Positions 1 to 63,200 of a stretch of DNA of 64,000 nucleotides are shown one piece after another. The DNA is from Laetmonice hystrix (Eukaryota). How positions within the stretch are numbered: the first letter of the stretch is position 1; each line of letters starts with the position of its first letter. The position numbers are program-made. The DNA lies in contig OZ249436.1 of assembly GCA_965235115.1 (NCBI GenBank), positions 17,918,001-17,982,000 of the forward strand, written 5' to 3'.

Positions 1-3000
1 GTCGCAGTCAGTGGAGATCGGAAGGATGTGGACGGACGGTGTCGCAGTCAGTGGAGACTGGAAGGATGTGGATGGACGGTGTCGCAGTCAGTGGAGACTG
101 GAAGGATGTCGATGGACGGTATCGCAGTCAGTGGAGATCGGAAGGATGTGGACGGACGGTGTCGCAGTCAGTGGAGACTGGAAGGATGTGGATGGACGGT
201 GTCGCAGTCAGTGGAGACTGGAAGGATGTCGATGGACGGTATCGCAGTCAGTGGAGATCGGAAGGATGTGGACGGACGGTGTCGCAGTCAGTGGAGACTG
301 GAAGGATGTCGATGGACGGTGTCGCAGTCAGTGGAGACTGGAAGGATGTGGATGGACGGTGTCGCAGTCAGTGGAGACTGGAAGGATGTCGATGGACGGT
401 GTCGCAGCAGTCAGTGGAGACTGGAAGGATGTGGATGGACGGTGTCGCAGTCAGTGGAGACTGGAAGGATGTCGATGGACGGTGTCGCAGCAGTCAGTGG
501 AGACTGGAAGGATGTCGATGGACGGTGTCGCAGCAGTCAGTGGAGACTGGAAGGATGTGGATGGACGGTGTCGCAGCAGTCAGTGGAGACTGGAAGGATG
601 TCGATGGACGGTGTCGCAGCAGTCAGTGGAGACTGGAAGGATGTGGATGGACGGTGTCGCAGTCAGTGGAGACTGGAAGTATGTGGATGGACGGTGTCGC
701 AGTCAGTGGAGACCGGAAGAATGTCGATGGACGGTGTTGCAGTTAGTGGAGACCGGAAGAATGTCGATGGACGGTGTCGCAGTTAGTGGAGACTGTAAGG
801 ATGTCGATGGACGGTGTCGCAGTTAGTGGAGACGGGAAAGATGTGGATGGACGGTGTCGCAGTCAGTGGAGACCGGAAGGATGTGGATGGACGGTGTCGC
901 AGTCAGTGGAGACTGGAAGGATGTGGATGGGCGGTGTCGCAGTCAGTGGAGACTGGAAGGATGTGGATGGGCGGTGTCGCAGTCAGTGGAGACTGGAAGG
1001 ATGTGGATGGACGGTGTCGCAGTCAGTGGAGACTGGAAGGATGTGGATGGACGGTGTCGCAGTCAGTGGAGACTGGAAGGATGTGGATGGACGGTGTCGC
1101 AGTCAGTGGAGACCGGAAGGATGTGGATGGACGGTGTCGCAGTCAGTGGAGATCGGAAGGATGTGGACGGACGGTGTCGCAGTCAGTGGAGACCGGAAGA
1201 ATGTCGATGGACGGTGTCGCAGTCAGTGGAGACTGGAAGGATGTGGATGGACGGTGTCGCAGTTAGTGGAGACCGGAAGAATGTCGATGGACGGTGGTTG
1301 AGCGGGGATGAAGATGACACCGGACTGGTTGGATGCACACTTGGTGCCGCAGTGTTTTAAAGTAAGCCGCTGCTCCAGGCTCTTACATGGTAGTGGTCGT
1401 CAGATTTATGAATGCGCTGCGTTCACTTATGGGCCAATGTTTGCCGAGAGTGTCTTGGCCGTCTTAGGCACTAAACGGCCGGGCACAGGCGACGCTCGTC
1501 CACGTAACTGGGTCATTGCGCCACATTACCGTCACGATCAATATACAACCTCACGGCTACGGGCGCCAATCTCCCCCCACCCTTCCTTACCCCCCCCCCC
1601 CCCCTCCTGCCACCACCGACCGCTCCCAACCCGCCAACCACAGGTCCGCACCTAAGCCTAATCCTAATCCTTCTACCTGGTGCACAGATTACCACAGAAT
1701 CTCACTACACAGACTGTTAATCCGGGATCCGCCGATAGAAGGTACGGAAGGCGGCTGTGGCATTGGCAAGGAGGAGAGGACAATGTACGAACTTCCATGG
1801 GAATGTGAGTCTCAGGGTCGAATCAAAGCACATCCCTGACACCATCGTCAGGGGAGAAATCACATGATGCAATACCTCCGATCCGATCCTGTCTCGAGCC
1901 ACACACGTCACAGATCCTGGCGCCACATTTTATGTTTTTATATCTTGAAGCCCTTGTATCTCTCGATTTGGAAGTCATGGAATGGTGGCTCCATAGAGCT
2001 CCATGACTCCTACCAACTACTGCCTTATTCCTCCAGATGACTAGATGACTAGGGGGGCGAATTCCTTCGATCGTTTATGATTTACGTGGGATGTGATCGG
2101 AGGTTGGGAGCCTGTTTTCCTGGTATCTCCATGAGTGAAGCCTCCATGGTATAAAGTGCTCCATATTGACGGGAAGGCTTCGGGAGATAATGCTGTAGTG
2201 CTGTTATACAGGAAGATAATGATTATAAGTCACAGTGTTATAAACGATTTATAATTGTACACGCTAGTGTTGTTATTATAATTATGTATTTGAAATTATT
2301 TATAATTGCAACGCTAGAACGCTAGAGTCTGCGGCAAACATAAACTACTTCTCAAGGAGGGAACAATAGTCGCACTGTTTTAATGATTTAGTATGACTTG
2401 CTTGTTTTGGAGTGTGGCGAGTATAACTTGTTATGTGGGAGTGTCCAATGACCATGACTATGATTTTATTATGTGGGAGTTCATGACTATGACTTTGTGT
2501 TGGGATGTTTATAAGAAAATATAATTTTGTTTTGTGGGTGTTCCTGAGCAGGACTTTGTTGTGTAGGTGTTCCTGAGCAGGACTTTGTTGTGTGGGTGCT
2601 CCTGAGCAGGACTTTGTTGTGTGGGTGCTCCTGAGCAGGACTTTGTTATGTAGGTGTTCCTGAGCAGGACTTTGTTGTGTGGGTGCTCCTGAGCAGGACT
2701 TTGTTGTGTAGACCTGTGCTCCTGAGCAGGATTTTGTTGTGTGGGTGTTCCTGAGCAGGACTTTGTTGTGTAGACCTGTGCTCCTGAGCAGGACTTTGTT
2801 ATATGTGGAAGGGGTTCGGAGTAAAACTTTGTTATGTAATAAAGTCTTTTTGAAGGAAGGAGGTGGCCCCGTTATGTGGGTGTCCAGGTGTACAGGATGG
2901 TGCTGGATGCACTCAGCTCGCTTTGCACCTGCTCTCCAATCAATGTCAGGTGAGTCGTCCCACAGGTGCAAGTCTCTTATCGGCCACACATCAATAATTC

Positions 3001-60200: not shown

Positions 60201-63200
60201 CCTAACTCTAACCTTGACCGCCATTTCTCTAACCGTCTAACAGGGCCTTGTCCTAACTCTAACCTTGACCGCCATTTCTCTAACCGTCTGTCAGGGCCTT
60301 GTCCTAACCCTAACCTTTACCGCCATTTCGTGGGAATAATTCAGGAAATTCACCCAGCTTGAGAGAGAGGGGGCAGTGAGTAAGTGTAAAAAAAGAGAGA
60401 GTGTAATGAAAGAAAAAAGCTGCCATATTTCAGTGTGTTAAGTGAGTACAGAGTACATGTAGGCCTACATGAAGGAGGCCTTTACGTCACTGCCAGTCAA
60501 TTGTTGGCCACGCCCAATCACAGGTGTGAGTGACCGTGAGTCATTGAGTCAATCGACAGTTGAGGGGTGTGTGCCCTCAGTCCGTGTTGTCCAACAGGTG
60601 TGTGTTCTAGAGGAAACGGGTGATACTGCCCTCATCCCCCCAGCCCCCTGACGGATCCTATCAATCGCTCCGGGCCCCAGCCCCAAGCGTCCCCACACCT
60701 CCACTCCCCAGTCCCCGGCCCTCAGCCCATCTCGTCTCTCCCAAGCCCCATCCTCGGCTCCCAGCCCCTGGCCTTCGCCCCCCCCCCCCCCCCCCCCAGG
60801 CATAGGCCCCAACCCCTGGCCCTCAGCAGAGCGTCTCCCTCAGGCCCATCGCGGAGTGCGCCCATAGCCCAGTTTGTCCCGGCAGAGTGCGCCCATAGCC
60901 CAGTTTGTCCCGGCAGAGTGCGCCCAGAGCCCAGTTTGTCCCGGCAGAGTGCGCCTAGAGCCCAGTTTGTCCGTTTTGAGTCGGTGTGATCCCCTCCCCC
61001 GACAATAATCACAAATATTTCCAGCTTCCCTCTCCACGCTCGTGTAACGTGCACTTCCATTCCGATCTAAACTGGGATATAAACGGCCAGCTTGTGTCCC
61101 AGCCCGCTCGCAGCCATGCTCAACCCTCTTTGTCCCGAGAATGTTTTCATAAAATGTCATCTCGCAATGACTGTGTGCATGACAACATCCCAATCTTGCC
61201 ATGAATTGAGCATGCAATTTGAACTCGGACGAGCAAGTGTTGGGAACAATATCATGGAACCACGGACGTATTCGAGGCCAAACCTGTCAATCTGCTCAGT
61301 GTTGGTCCCCTGAATTACATCCATTGCTCTCCGTCTATACCTGTCACTATGTCAGAGTGTATCTAATTCTAGAACCTCTGCCGCCAGCCACGTCAGGTTA
61401 CAGAGTACAACCTTGGCCACCGTATGACGTCCACTTCAAATGACCAGCGGGGGGGCTGCATGCAGTAACAGTCCTAGAAGCGAATTGAGTTTAGGACCAA
61501 TCTTTAGCCTTCATTAAAACAGTTTGTATTTATTACCTCGTTTAGTTAAAAGACACAGAAATTAAAGAGAAAATTATAACCTTCATCATTCGTCTTGGAG
61601 AATATTAATGTTGCCCAGTCCTACGTAGGACCAGTCCTAAGGGGCGGACCATTTGATACGTGGGGTGGGCTATGGTTTTTTGTGGGGTTTTCTTTGAGGG
61701 GGGATCTGTGCACCAAACTACATCAAATCAAATATGTAAAAAAAATATATAGTATAGTCGAAATGGGGGGGGGGGATTGGTCATCGCAAAAAATAGCTTT
61801 GGCCTGGGGGCAAAAACAAGTTTGCTCATTAAGAAAAACCATACCCCCCCCCGTATCAAATGATTCGCCCCTAACGTTATTGCAACGCCCCCAGCAGGTC
61901 CAAGAATGTAACCACGTTAATCAAAGTTTCGACACTGTACCGACTCTCAGCGTTTTATGAAACTGTACAAAGCTCTTCACCTATCAGAATAATGAGATGA
62001 CATTGTCAGCCGCTCTATCTGAGCTATCTATGAGGTCAGATATCTAAATCATGTTGACGTGTCAAAACATGAATGGTTTTCTAAGTGTCACTGAAGATCT
62101 TTAGATGCCAGGTTGACCGAGGTGGGAACACATGAATGGTTTTCTAAGTGTCACTGAAGATCTTTAGATGCCAGGTTGACCGAGGTGGGAACACATGAAT
62201 GGTTTTCTAAGTGTCACTGAAGATCTTTAGATGACAGGTTGACCGAGGTGGGAACACATGAATGGTTTTCTAAGTGTCACTGAAGATCTTTAGATGCCAG
62301 GTTGACCGAGGTGGGAACACATGAATGGTTTTCTAAGTGTCACTGAAGATCTTTAGATGCCAGGTTGACCGAGGTGGAAACACATGAATGGTTTTCTAAG
62401 TGTCACTGAAGATCTTTAGATGCCAGGTTGACCGAGGTGGGAACACATGAATGGTTTTCTAAGTGTCACTGAAGATCTTTAGATGCCAGGTTGACCGAGG
62501 TGGGAACACATGAATGGTTTTCTAAGTGTCACTGAAGATCTTTAGATGCCAGGTTGACCGAGGTGGGAACACATGAATGGTTTTCTAAGTGTCACTGAAG
62601 ATCTTTAGATGCCAGGTTGACCGAGGTGGGAACGGCTACCTATGTGGTGGTAGTGATATACCTTTACTTGTATTTATTTCATCTACAGCGACCTGATACC
62701 ACAGACCGAGTGATGGACTAAGCTGGAGTGACGAGCTCCATGATACAGAGATACAGGATACCGTGATACAGGATACAGGATACAAGATACCGTGATACAG
62801 GAGACAGTGATACAGAACGCATTGGTACAGGAGACGGTGATACAGGATATAGGAGATAGATACAGGATGCATTGATACAGGAAACATTGATACAGTGACA
62901 CGATACACGATACAGTGATAGACGAGACAGGGATACACTGAGACTCATCTAGTGACGGGCTCCATCCCACACTGTTACATAGAACTTTCCCACATGATAT
63001 ATTGGTAGTGAGGCAGCCACTGTGGCTGGTTCTTCCATAACCTATGTCTACTGTATTTATTTCTAATGGCACGACCACAATGTGGTACGTACGAATGCTC
63101 TTCCAGCCGGTTCTACGATCACTTCCGACCAACAACATTTATATTTTTTGTATTTGCTAGTGAATTCACCAATACTTGCGTTGTAAGATCTCATCCATAT

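What the first reader, a model, noticed from the sequence alone, without database searches (positions are those of the whole stretch)
1..62935. A library of more than 35 unrelated, single-locus minisatellites making up about a third of the window
Seen: an array every 1-2 kb, most with 29-63 bp units, and no two arrays sharing a unit by eye. Many are very homogeneous (53 bp x18, 63 bp x9, 61 bp x~25). Known: classical satellites usually form a few large families. Inference: a genome-wide process repeatedly amplifies local unique sequence of about 40-50 bp, for example by slippage or microhomology-mediated repair.
[Added by the scan's program, not by the reader: the finding's places include an assembly gap (unread letters, written N; its length is only estimated) at 6851 to 7047, 24265 to 24443, 49338 to 49494, 55898 to 56154. 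Whether the letters on both sides are continuous or in frame is not known: test that first.]
Basis: partly seen in the sequence, partly recalled or inferred. Interest (0 to 1): 0.65.

Follow-up and report, generated by a model that had tools for sequence, protein, structure and literature searches.

The report
Dense cluster of unrelated local minisatellites
About a third of this 64-kb non-coding stretch consists of some three dozen short tandem-repeat arrays, almost all with their own unit, which look as if they arose on the spot from local sequence; this kind of thing is known, but the density here is unusually high.

Summary
Tandem Repeats Finder gives 47 repeat loci covering 21,710 of 63,210 read bases (34.3%). 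Of these, 34 are arrays with units of 10 bp or more and at least 3 copies (median unit 40 bp). Units are unrelated to each other, except for three G-rich telomere-like arrays. Array flanks are unique within the window, lack terminal inverted repeats, and no assembly gap touches an array.

No coding signal was found: 50 of 50 of the longest ORFs outside arrays reached no Pfam cut-off.

Several features point to birth in place by short, microhomology-flanked tandem duplication, followed by growth through out-of-register exchange:
- Low-copy duplications end in partial copies of 1-5 bp.
- Copy numbers lie closer to integers than chance allows.
- Multi-unit higher-order periods occur.
- Edge copies are slightly more diverged than interior copies.

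Units are more GC-rich and more strand-asymmetric than neighbouring unique DNA, like classical minisatellites. Telomere-like arrays hint at a subtelomere-like setting.

"Single-locus" and "genome-wide" could not be tested, because no eukaryotic genome collection was available. The organism is unknown; CpG observed/expected of 0.75 and near absence of interspersed repeats argue against human. I rate this an extreme example of a known kind, of moderate interest.

The parts
1..1296 (.). 40-bp unit x 32.0, 93% matches; cut by the window start
   Evidence: TRF
2526..2800 (.). 29-bp unit x 9.2, 88%
3091..3212 (.). 11-bp unit x 10.5 (36-bp higher order), 78%
3676..3829 (.). 33-bp unit x 4.6, 80%
5055..5705 (.). 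46-bp unit x 14.2, 87%; higher-order periods 229 and 320 bp
7256..7494 (+). 18-bp degenerate telomere-like array x 12.6, G-rich on the + strand
12333..12909 (.). 31-bp unit x 18.6, 97%; abuts the next array (1 bp apart)
12911..13297 (.). 36-bp unit x 10.9, 86%; 70- and 106-bp higher orders
13612..13947 (.). 66-bp unit x 3.7 with 53- and 39-bp variants, 94%
14154..14874 (.). Composite 114-bp unit x 3.1 containing an (ACCT)n microsatellite
20177..21202 (.). 40-bp unit x 25.7, 86%
21570..22332 (+). G-rich telomere-like array (TRF periods 5/11/27/49); related to 43165-43346
23036..23196 (.). 33-bp unit x 4.9, 81%
25432..26970 (.). 61-bp unit x 25.1, 96%; 367-bp (6-unit) higher order; a further unit with an internal deletion follows the TRF end
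27351..27823 (.). 42-bp unit x 11.3, 92%
29978..30516 (.). 44-bp unit x 12.0, 88%
32518..33231 (.). 42-bp unit x 17.0, 92%; 301-aa open frame with no relatives
33445..34193 (.). 29-bp unit x 25.9, 88%
34870..35017 (.). 40-bp unit x 3.1, 95%; ends in a 3-bp partial copy
35649..37645 (.). 47-bp unit, about 42 copies (TRF rows of 28.2 and 14.9), 141-bp higher order; orphan copy at 35395-35427
38145..39193 (.). 39-bp unit x 26.4, 86%, GC 69%
42222..42971 (.). 39-bp unit x 19.3, 96%; open frames change register inside the array
43165..43346 (+). 22/26-bp G-rich telomere-like array x 6.5-6.9
45785..46743 (.). 53-bp unit x 18.1, 99%
46817..47520 (.). 55-bp unit x 12.8, 96%; 73 bp from the previous array
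50099..50359 (.). 17/18-bp unit x 14.9, 88%, GC 77%
51393..52339 (.). 41-bp unit x 23.1, 87%; 159-bp higher order
53229..53491 (.). 48-bp unit x 5.1, 86%
54299..55201 (.). 46-bp basic unit with 76-, 122- and 292-bp higher orders
55316..55415 (.). 33-bp unit x 3.0, 98%; ends in a 1-bp partial copy
58759..59082 (.). 34-bp unit x 9.4, 76%; 131-bp higher order
59228..59595 (.). 47-bp unit x 7.8, 98%
59817..60329 (-). 51-bp unit x 10.1, 91%; the TTAGGG-dimer search (one mismatch) hits 6 sites on the - strand, in 6 of about 10 units
60854..60972 (.). 31-bp unit x 3.8, 97%
62067..62633 (.). 63-bp unit x 9.0, 99%
62742..62941 (.). 7/15-bp unit array, 66-71% matches

Best explanation
The window is a non-coding domain of at least 64 kb from a eukaryote that is not vertebrate-like in CpG content. 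New minisatellites appear to have been born here repeatedly, in place. Step 1 (inferred from end structure): a local segment of roughly 17-66 bp, flanked by a few bases of direct repeat, is duplicated in tandem. This is microhomology-mediated tandem duplication or replication slippage. GC-rich, strand-asymmetric segments are favoured. Step 2 (inferred from internal structure): once two or three copies exist, out-of-register pairing adds and removes copies, sometimes several at a time. The pairing could be slippage, unequal sister-chromatid exchange or meiotic exchange and conversion. This yields arrays of 3 to about 42 copies with higher-order periods and interiors slightly more homogeneous than edges. 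Step 3: arrays decay by point mutation and indels. The mix of 99%-identical and 75%-identical arrays therefore reflects a continuing process rather than one burst. The exceptional density most likely reflects a break- or recombination-prone, subtelomere-like setting (weakly indicated by telomere-like arrays), or a lineage-wide propensity, or both. The arrays are not genes.
For: Arrays are real and dense: 34.3% of read bases, 47 loci, against 0-1 TRF rows in shuffles. Local origin: 0 related pairs among 561 unit pairs. If arrays came from equally common dispersed families, fewer than about 200 families would leave no sharing with P<0.05. TR-masked self-BLAST finds only one dispersed family in 41.5 kb. 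Flank inverted-repeat score is 9.12 against a control of 9.14, with 2 of 25 testable arrays above the control's 95th percentile. An orphan 47-bp unit copy lies 220 bp upstream of its array. Microhomology-type ends: of 6 low-copy (2-3.8 copies) duplications in unique DNA, 5 end in partial copies of 5, 1, 3, 1 and 3 bp. Across 33 arrays the mean distance of copy number from an integer is 0.183 against 0.25 expected (P=0.003). TRF itself shows no such bias: 0.252 in 395 of 396 simulated arrays recovered, P=0.0016. Growth by exchange: higher-order periods of 2-7 units appear in at least 8 arrays. Interior copies are closer to consensus than the 2+2 edge copies in 16 of 23 arrays (Wilcoxon P=0.03). 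Classical-minisatellite composition: unit GC 53.8% against 45.3% (P<0.0002) and |GC skew| 0.348 against 0.254 (P=0.003). Non-coding: 0 of 50 longest non-array ORFs reach a Pfam cut-off. 14 of 34 periods are divisible by 3 (P=0.21). Frames shift inside arrays. Subtelomere-like hint: 20 telomere-dimer matches against 0.34 expected. Published mechanism: the microhomology tandem-duplication preprint 10.64898/2026.02.28.708716 (abstract and sections 8, 9, 16 read).
Against: 'Single-locus' is shown only within 64 kb, since no genome was available. TRF ends are not always the true ends: the 61-bp array continues with a unit carrying an internal deletion, so the partial-copy measure is noisy. 8 of 33 arrays have fractional parts between 0.3 and 0.8. 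One low-copy duplication (60854-60972) ends with a 26-bp partial copy, and two others have fewer than 2 copies. The edge-versus-interior difference is small (1.4 points). No shared recombination-type motif was found, and no hairpin excess, so nothing explains why these particular segments amplified. The telomere-like arrays lie in both orientations and may be interstitial. Chromosomal position is unknown.
Confidence: 0.55

Rival explanations
1. Lineage-wide process: the whole genome of this organism makes locus-specific minisatellites at a very high rate, for example through a peculiarity of lagging-strand processing or repair. On this view the window is typical of the genome rather than special.
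For: Density is even across all 64 kb; the longest array-free stretch is 5.3 kb and spacing has CV 1.03. Array identities span 75-99%, as expected of a standing process. Lancelet genes are reported to carry locus-specific minisatellites with 10-72 bp, 60 bp and 108 bp units and copy-number differences between haplotypes (PMC3087553 passages; PMC3902484 passages). This shows such lineages exist, but the window's organism is not identified.
Against: Untested: one window cannot speak for a genome. Telomere-like arrays suggest a special region. In frogs and humans such enrichment is regional.
Confidence: 0.2
2. The arrays are internal tandem repeats carried by many different non-autonomous transposable elements (MITE-, Helitron- or SINE-derived). 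Each unit would then be dispersed in the genome even though no two copies fall in this window.
For: Tandem arrays derived from TE pieces are documented in frog subtelomeres (10.1101/2021.10.18.464293 passages). The window does hold a MITE and one dispersed repeat. 2 of 25 arrays (35649, 51393) have flank inverted-repeat scores above the control's 95th percentile.
Against: No two of 34 arrays share a unit or flank, which needs about 200 or more equally common families. Mean flank inverted-repeat score equals the control. No transposase or reverse-transcriptase ORF was found among 50 ORFs. Helitron-type carriers without inverted repeats are not excluded.
Confidence: 0.15
3. Assembly artefact: the arrays are created or inflated by misassembly of repetitive reads.
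For: The scaffold has 4 estimated-length gaps. Three arrays are 99% homogeneous, the kind whose copy number assemblers misjudge.
Against: No gap touches an array. Each array sits between unique flanks on one contig. Most arrays carry ordered variants and higher-order periods, which misassembly does not invent. 36 different units cannot come from collapse of one repeat.
Confidence: 0.04
4. The arrays encode repetitive proteins, as exons of repeat-rich genes.
For: Long open frames run through many arrays. 2 of 10 array ORFs gave 4 Pfam matches above curated cut-offs: Big_12 at 33.3 bits and Ntox1 at 28.2 on 12214-12966, and Galaxin_repeat at 38.8 and Zn_Ribbon_1 at 27.8 on 42145-42897.
Against: 3 of those 4 matches have no single stretch passing on its own, so they are summed periodic weak hits. 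Several frames and both strands are open in the same arrays, and the frame changes within the 39-bp array. Periods divisible by 3 are not enriched (14 of 34, P=0.21). Searches of 5.8 billion proteins gave 0 hits for the 42-bp array ORF and 1 hit (a protein a source names CopZ, 41% identity over 49% of the query) for the 39-bp array ORF; those searches covered only proteins of similar length.
Confidence: 0.02

Closest known systems
Subtelomeric clusters of GC-rich, locus-specific VNTRs/minisatellites in human chromosomes
   Same: Many unrelated arrays with units longer than 15 bp, richer in GC than their surroundings and concentrated regionally. VNTRs with more than 60% GC and units over 15 bp are 21-fold enriched within 5 Mb of chromosome ends (PMC7608644 passages). 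Strand asymmetry of classical minisatellites is recalled, not checked in a paper.
   Different: The window's unique DNA has CpG observed/expected 0.75 and almost no interspersed repeats, so it is not human-like. Units average 54% GC, not above 60%. Coverage of 34% appears far above what I recall for human subtelomeres, but no figure was retrieved.
Lancelet (amphioxus) intragenic minisatellites, including 'mirages'
   Same: Locus-specific tandem arrays in genes of an invertebrate chordate: units of 10-72 bp (Adh3), 60 bp and 108 bp (PGBD5) and 150-160 bp (globins). They show concerted evolution inside arrays, exclusion of boundary copies from homogenisation, and copy-number differences between haplotypes (PMC3087553 and PMC3902484 passages).
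   Different: Those reports concern single genes and arrays spanning exon-intron borders. No exon was found here, and the window's organism is not identified. The original Adh paper (PMC117041) is not held.
Extended subtelomeres of frogs (Xenopus tropicalis)
   Same: Terminal regions with high recombination and dense tandem arrays, explained by unequal crossing over. 10.67% of chromosomes is in arrays of 5 or more units longer than 10 bp. AGGG is among the enriched tetramers (10.1101/2021.10.18.464293 passages), and AGGG is also enriched in the window's units (z=3.7).
   Different: Frog arrays fall into families, and some derive from TE pieces amplified at many loci. Here no family structure is seen within 64 kb. 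TGGG (z=1.9) and ACAG (z=1.0) are not clearly enriched.
Mouse pseudoautosomal region
   Same: A high-recombination region whose introns and intergenic DNA are filled with minisatellites, attributed to frequent recombination and unequal crossover (10.1101/2022.03.26.485930 passages).
   Different: One 31-bp family (mo-2 and relatives) makes up 22.6% of that region. Here each array has its own unit.
Microhomology-mediated tandem duplication as the origin of tandem repeats
   Same: The model predicts arrays of n copies plus a short partial copy equal to the microhomology arm, and favours GC-rich arms (10.64898/2026.02.28.708716, sections 8, 9, 16). The low-copy duplications and the near-integer copy numbers here fit that prediction.
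   Different: That work rests on microbes and human variant data. The link to Okazaki-fragment processing (Rad27) is shown in yeast and is only an analogy here.

Membership tests
Minisatellite (VNTR-type tandem array) | Head-to-tail copies of a unit of roughly 10-100 bp in arrays of about 0.1-20 kb | tested here: met
   34 arrays with periods of 11-122 bp, 3-42 copies and 100-1,997 bp
Minisatellite (VNTR-type tandem array) | Locus-specific unit (not a dispersed family) | tested here: inconclusive
   No sharing within the window apart from the G-rich telomere-like arrays.
Minisatellite (VNTR-type tandem array) | Copy-number polymorphism between individuals or haplotypes | not testable with these tools
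   Only one sequence of the locus is available.
Classical GC-rich hypervariable minisatellites | GC-rich units with purine/pyrimidine or G/C strand asymmetry (feature recalled) | tested here: met
   GC 53.8% against 45.3%; |GC skew| 0.348 against 0.254, P=0.003
Classical GC-rich hypervariable minisatellites | Shared core motif among loci (Jeffreys-type core; recalled) | tested here: not met
   No 5- to 8-mer is shared by more units than in controls. The only candidate is a telomere-like heptamer in 5 units, which equals the control's 95th percentile.
Satellite DNA family / satellite 'library' | The same monomer family present in several arrays or loci | tested here: not met
   0 of 561 unit pairs related. 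The only exception is the telomere-like G-rich arrays. This holds within the window only.
TE-borne tandem arrays (MITE-like carriers) | Array bracketed by terminal inverted repeats or by flanks repeated elsewhere | tested here: not met
   Mean inverted-repeat score 9.12 against control 9.14; 2 of 25 arrays above the 95th percentile (9 of 34 arrays had flanks too short or masked). Flanks are unique in the window.
Tandem repeats born by microhomology-mediated tandem duplication | Array equals an integer number of copies plus a short partial copy (the microhomology arm) | tested here: inconclusive
   5 of 6 low-copy duplications have 1-5 bp arms. 12 of 33 arrays have a 1-10 bp remainder and copy numbers are near integers (P about 0.002-0.003). 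However, 8 of 33 have fractions of 0.3-0.8, and TRF ends can be wrong.
Tandem repeats born by microhomology-mediated tandem duplication | Single-copy progenitor flanked by the two arms in a relative or another allele | not testable with these tools
   No related genome is available.
Subtelomeric domain | Degenerate telomere-repeat tracts | tested here: met
   20 matches to the TTAGGG dimer (up to 1 mismatch) against 0.34 expected, in 3 arrays
Subtelomeric domain | Position within the terminal part of a chromosome | not testable with these tools
   The location of the scaffold is unknown, and the telomere-like tracts lie in both orientations.

The most novel reading that the evidence does not exclude
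In this organism, de novo birth of locus-specific minisatellites could be a genome-wide and major mode of non-coding DNA growth. It would rival transposable elements: about a third of non-coding DNA in thousands of unrelated arrays and almost no interspersed repeats. The cause would be a lineage-specific weakness in flap or lagging-strand processing, or an unusually high break rate, and not chromosomal position.
Probability: 0.15. Interest if true: 0.65.

Novelty: new member of a known kind. Interest (0 to 1): 0.33.

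Why it matters
If the density seen here is regional, the window is a clean textbook example: about three dozen arrays of different ages side by side. It would be useful for dating the birth, growth and decay of minisatellites. If it is genome-wide, it would describe a genome that grows mainly by local tandem amplification instead of transposition, and it would offer a natural system for studying microhomology-mediated duplication in an animal-sized genome. 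In practice, such regions are hard to assemble and are hypervariable. Copy numbers in this scaffold should not be trusted without long reads, and gene finders may call false repeat proteins in the open frames of the arrays.

Tried and rejected
- **Hairpin-driven slippage.** DNA folding energies of 32 units do not differ from unit-sized unique controls (mean z -0.33; t-test P=0.13, Wilcoxon P=0.49). Rejected.
- **Shared recombination or binding motif.** No k-mer (k=5-8) exceeds the controls. Rejected.
- **Regular spacing.** The CV of inter-array gaps is 1.03. Rejected.
- **Runs of the same G/C-skew sign along the window.** Counted by hand: 15 runs against about 16.8 expected. Nothing there.
- **Organism and gene content.**
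  - Rfam at gathering thresholds gave 0 matches and ARAGORN gave 0 tRNAs.
  - 50 of 50 non-array ORFs had no Pfam family at its cut-off.
  - A period-3 Fourier scan gave no convincing exon; the maximum ratio was 4.1.
  - An amino-acid-composition ranking of 470 ORFs picked out nothing.
  - Protein searches with ORF 61580-61957 and with two array ORFs gave 0, 0 and 1 hits. These covered only proteins of similar length.
  - The organism stays unidentified. An amphioxus-like source is only a guess from composition and literature.
- **Six-frame Pfam scan of whole stretches.** The tool does not accept translations with stops, so only stop-free ORFs were scanned, 60 in all.
- **Frog-type tetramers.** AGGG is enriched; TGGG and ACAG are not clearly enriched. 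The top tetramers (ACCT and relatives) come from one (ACCT)n-bearing unit.
- **Ungapped lag-identity profiles.** Blurred by indels and used only qualitatively.
- **Not used:** None bears on non-coding eukaryotic repeats.
- **Not seen:** supplementary tables of the frog paper (Tables 15-17) and of the duplication preprint, which may hold directly comparable figures.

Full report

Yes. Tandem Repeats Finder reports 111 rows. These merge into 47 loci covering 21,710 of the 63,210 read bases, or 34.3%. Five shuffles of the window gave 0, 0, 0, 1 and 0 rows.

- 34 loci have a unit of 10 bp or more and at least 3 copies (20,113 bp).
- 24 loci have at least 5 copies and at least 250 bp (17,831 bp).
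- Counting the G-rich array 21570-22332 and the 7/15-bp array 62742-62941 gives 36, so "more than 35" is just met.
- 28 of 34 units are 29-66 bp long, median 40.
- Gaps between arrays average 1,288 bp (median 807) with a coefficient of variation of 1.03, which fits random rather than regular placement.

**2. The assembly gaps**

The four N runs (197, 179, 157 and 257 bp) are not inside or next to any array; the nearest TRF row is at least 209 bp away. The 600 bp on either side of each gap share nothing beyond chance. Continuity across the gaps cannot be established, but the finding does not depend on it. Nothing was filled in.

**3. Are the units unrelated?**

All-against-all comparison of the 34 consensus units (561 pairs, both strands, all rotations) found nothing better than a 13-nt exact match, E 0.008. 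Searching every unit against the whole window found only two relations outside the home array:
- The G-rich 22-bp unit of 43165-43346 matches the G-rich array 21570-22332, at up to 88.6% over 35 nt.
- A solitary 33-nt copy of the 47-bp unit lies 220 bp upstream of its array.

With tandem repeats masked, self-BLAST of the remaining 41.5 kb gave 8 alignments. They amount to one dispersed repeat family (8655-9950 and 40993-41490) plus small inverted repeats.

If arrays were drawn from equally common dispersed families, fewer than about 200 families would leave 34 arrays with no sharing at P<0.05. This bounds the "few families" alternative but does not exclude it.

**4. What kind of DNA is this?**

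- The unique part has 45.4% GC and CpG observed/expected 0.75. That is far from human or vertebrate-like depletion.
- The near absence of interspersed repeats points the same way, so I do not take the window for human.
- No Rfam family reached its gathering score and no tRNA was found.
- None of the 50 longest stop-free frames outside arrays reached a Pfam cut-off.
- A period-3 scan and a composition ranking gave no convincing exon.
- The organism remains unidentified. No spliced model was attempted.

**5. Are the arrays coding?**

Long open frames run through many arrays. 2 of 10 array frames gave 4 Pfam matches above curated cut-offs (Big_12, Ntox1, Galaxin_repeat, Zn_Ribbon_1). The evidence against coding is stronger:
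- 3 of those 4 matches have no single stretch that passes on its own, as expected when a weak match is summed over a periodic query.
- Several frames on both strands are open in the same arrays, and the register changes inside the 39-bp array.
- Only 14 of 34 periods are multiples of three (P=0.21).
- Searches of 5.8 billion proteins gave 0 hits for the 42-bp array frame and one unrelated-looking hit for the 39-bp array frame. These covered only proteins of similar length.

I conclude the arrays are non-coding.

**6. Anatomy and mechanism**

*(a) Flanks.* For the 25 arrays with usable 300-bp flanks, the best inverted-repeat score between left and right flank averages 9.12 against 9.14 in 300 control pairs. 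Two arrays exceed the control's 95th percentile. The other 9 of 34 arrays had flanks too short or masked. MITE-like carriers are therefore not the rule.

*(b) Ends.*
- Of 6 low-copy duplications lying in unique DNA, 5 end in partial copies of 5, 1, 3, 1 and 3 bp, and one in 26 bp. Two further candidates have fewer than two copies.
- Under blunt duplication, a partial copy of 3 bp or more has probability 1/64.
- Across 33 arrays the fractional copy number is U-shaped. The mean distance to an integer is 0.183 against 0.25 expected (P=0.003).
- A simulation with uniform true remainders shows TRF has no bias of its own: 0.252 in the 395 of 396 arrays recovered, P=0.0016.
- 12 of 33 arrays end in a 1-10 bp partial copy.
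- Caveat: TRF ends are not always the true ends. The 61-bp array continues with a unit carrying an internal deletion. 8 of 33 arrays have fractions between 0.3 and 0.8.

*(c) Growth.*
- Higher-order periods of several units occur: 61 to 367 bp, 47 to 141, 46 to 229/320, 36 to 70/106, 39 to 77, 41 to 159, 34 to 131, and 46 to 122/292.
- Interiors are slightly more homogeneous than the two edge copies on each side in 16 of 23 arrays (mean 1.4 points, P=0.03).
- Both features fit out-of-register exchange.

*(d) Ages.* TRF matches run from 75% to 99% (10 arrays at 95% or more, 6 below 85%). Copy numbers are spread evenly over 3-6, 6-12, 12-20 and above 20 (8, 10, 9 and 7 arrays). This fits a continuing process.

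*(e) Composition.* Units are richer in GC (53.8% against 45.3%, P<0.0002) and more strand-asymmetric (|GC skew| 0.348 against 0.254, P=0.003) than unit-sized unique segments. A/T-rich tetramers are depleted.

*(f) Negative results.* There is no hairpin excess and no shared motif.

**7. Setting**

The telomere-repeat dimer, with at most one mismatch, occurs 20 times against 0.34 expected. The matches lie in arrays 7256-7494 and 21570-22332 (G-rich on the + strand) and 59817-60329 (- strand). This suggests a subtelomere-like or formerly terminal region. The mixed orientation and the unknown map position keep it no more than a hint.

**8. Comparison with what is known**

Dense regional clusters of unrelated GC-rich VNTRs are described for several systems:
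- Human subtelomeres (PMC7608644, passages).
- Frog extended subtelomeres, where tandem-array enrichment correlates with recombination and is attributed to unequal crossing over (10.1101/2021.10.18.464293, passages).
- The mouse pseudoautosomal region, whose introns are filled with minisatellites (10.1101/2022.03.26.485930, passages).
- Lancelet genes, which carry locus-specific minisatellites with haplotype differences (PMC3087553 and PMC3902484, passages). The original Adh paper is not held.

Lancelet genomes are reported to have about 30% repeats and abundant MITEs (PMC10013865, passages), but nothing ties this window to them.

Birth of tandem repeats from microhomology-flanked duplications is argued in preprint 10.64898/2026.02.28.708716 (abstract and sections 8, 9, 16).

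From memory, and not checked in a paper: rad27 yeast duplications flanked by short repeats (Tishkoff 1997), the strand asymmetry of classical minisatellites (Vergnaud and Denoeud 2000), and the satellite "library" idea (Fry and Salser 1977).

I searched the literature. I found no description of 34% coverage by unrelated minisatellites over tens of kilobases, but six keyword searches do not show that none exists.

**9. Verdict**

The thing itself is an unusually dense instance of a known kind.

- Confidence in in-place birth followed by exchange-driven growth: 0.55.
- Lineage-wide variant: 0.2.
- TE carriage: 0.15.
- Assembly artefact: 0.04.
- Coding repeats: 0.02.
- Interest: 0.33.

Noticed in passing
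window 8835-9414 (compare 41215-41330): A non-autonomous element of about 572 bp with 36-nt imperfect terminal inverted repeats and TTAA on both sides sits inside one copy of the window's only dispersed repeat. The other copy shows the empty site with a single TTAA, so this is a piggyBac-type target duplication.
   Followed up: partly
window 8655-9950 and 40993-41490: This is the only interspersed repeat family shared within the window (83-96% identity in pieces). The second copy has a 157-bp internal palindrome at 41004-41160. The family is not identified.
   Followed up: no
window 7256-7494, 21570-22332, 43165-43346, 59817-60329: Degenerate telomere-like tracts: three G-rich arrays on the + strand, and a 51-bp minisatellite in which 6 of about 10 units hit the TTAGGG-dimer search on the - strand. 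There are 20 dimer matches against 0.34 expected.
   Followed up: partly
window 42145-42897 (+): The 251-aa open frame through the 39-bp array scores 38.8 bits on Pfam Galaxin_repeat (cut-off 28), with a C-x-G-x3-Y-D pattern every 13 residues. It is probably period resonance: the frame shifts within the array, and a search of 5.8 billion proteins gave a single hit, named CopZ by its source.
   Followed up: partly
window 12333-13297, 45785-47520, 58759-60329: Arrays with different units sit 1 bp, 73 bp and 145-221 bp apart, forming compound blocks. This may mean that new arrays arise preferentially beside existing ones.
   Followed up: no
window 38001-40000: This is the most GC-rich stretch of the window (62.6%). 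Beyond the 39-bp array, 39200-40100 has open frames of 120-144 aa on both strands with no Pfam match. It could be a CpG-island-like region or just GC-rich spacer.
   Followed up: partly
window 17111-17188, 17837-17899, 57248-57286, 58217-58375, 14154-14809: Ordinary microsatellites, (CCT)n, (GA)n and (ACCT)n, lie among the minisatellites. The (ACCT)n tract has itself been duplicated as part of a 114/170-bp unit.
   Followed up: no
window 26963-26990: Beyond the TRF end of the 61-bp array lies one more unit with an internal deletion of about 24 bp. This shows that array edges decay by deletion and that TRF coordinates understate some arrays.
   Followed up: partly
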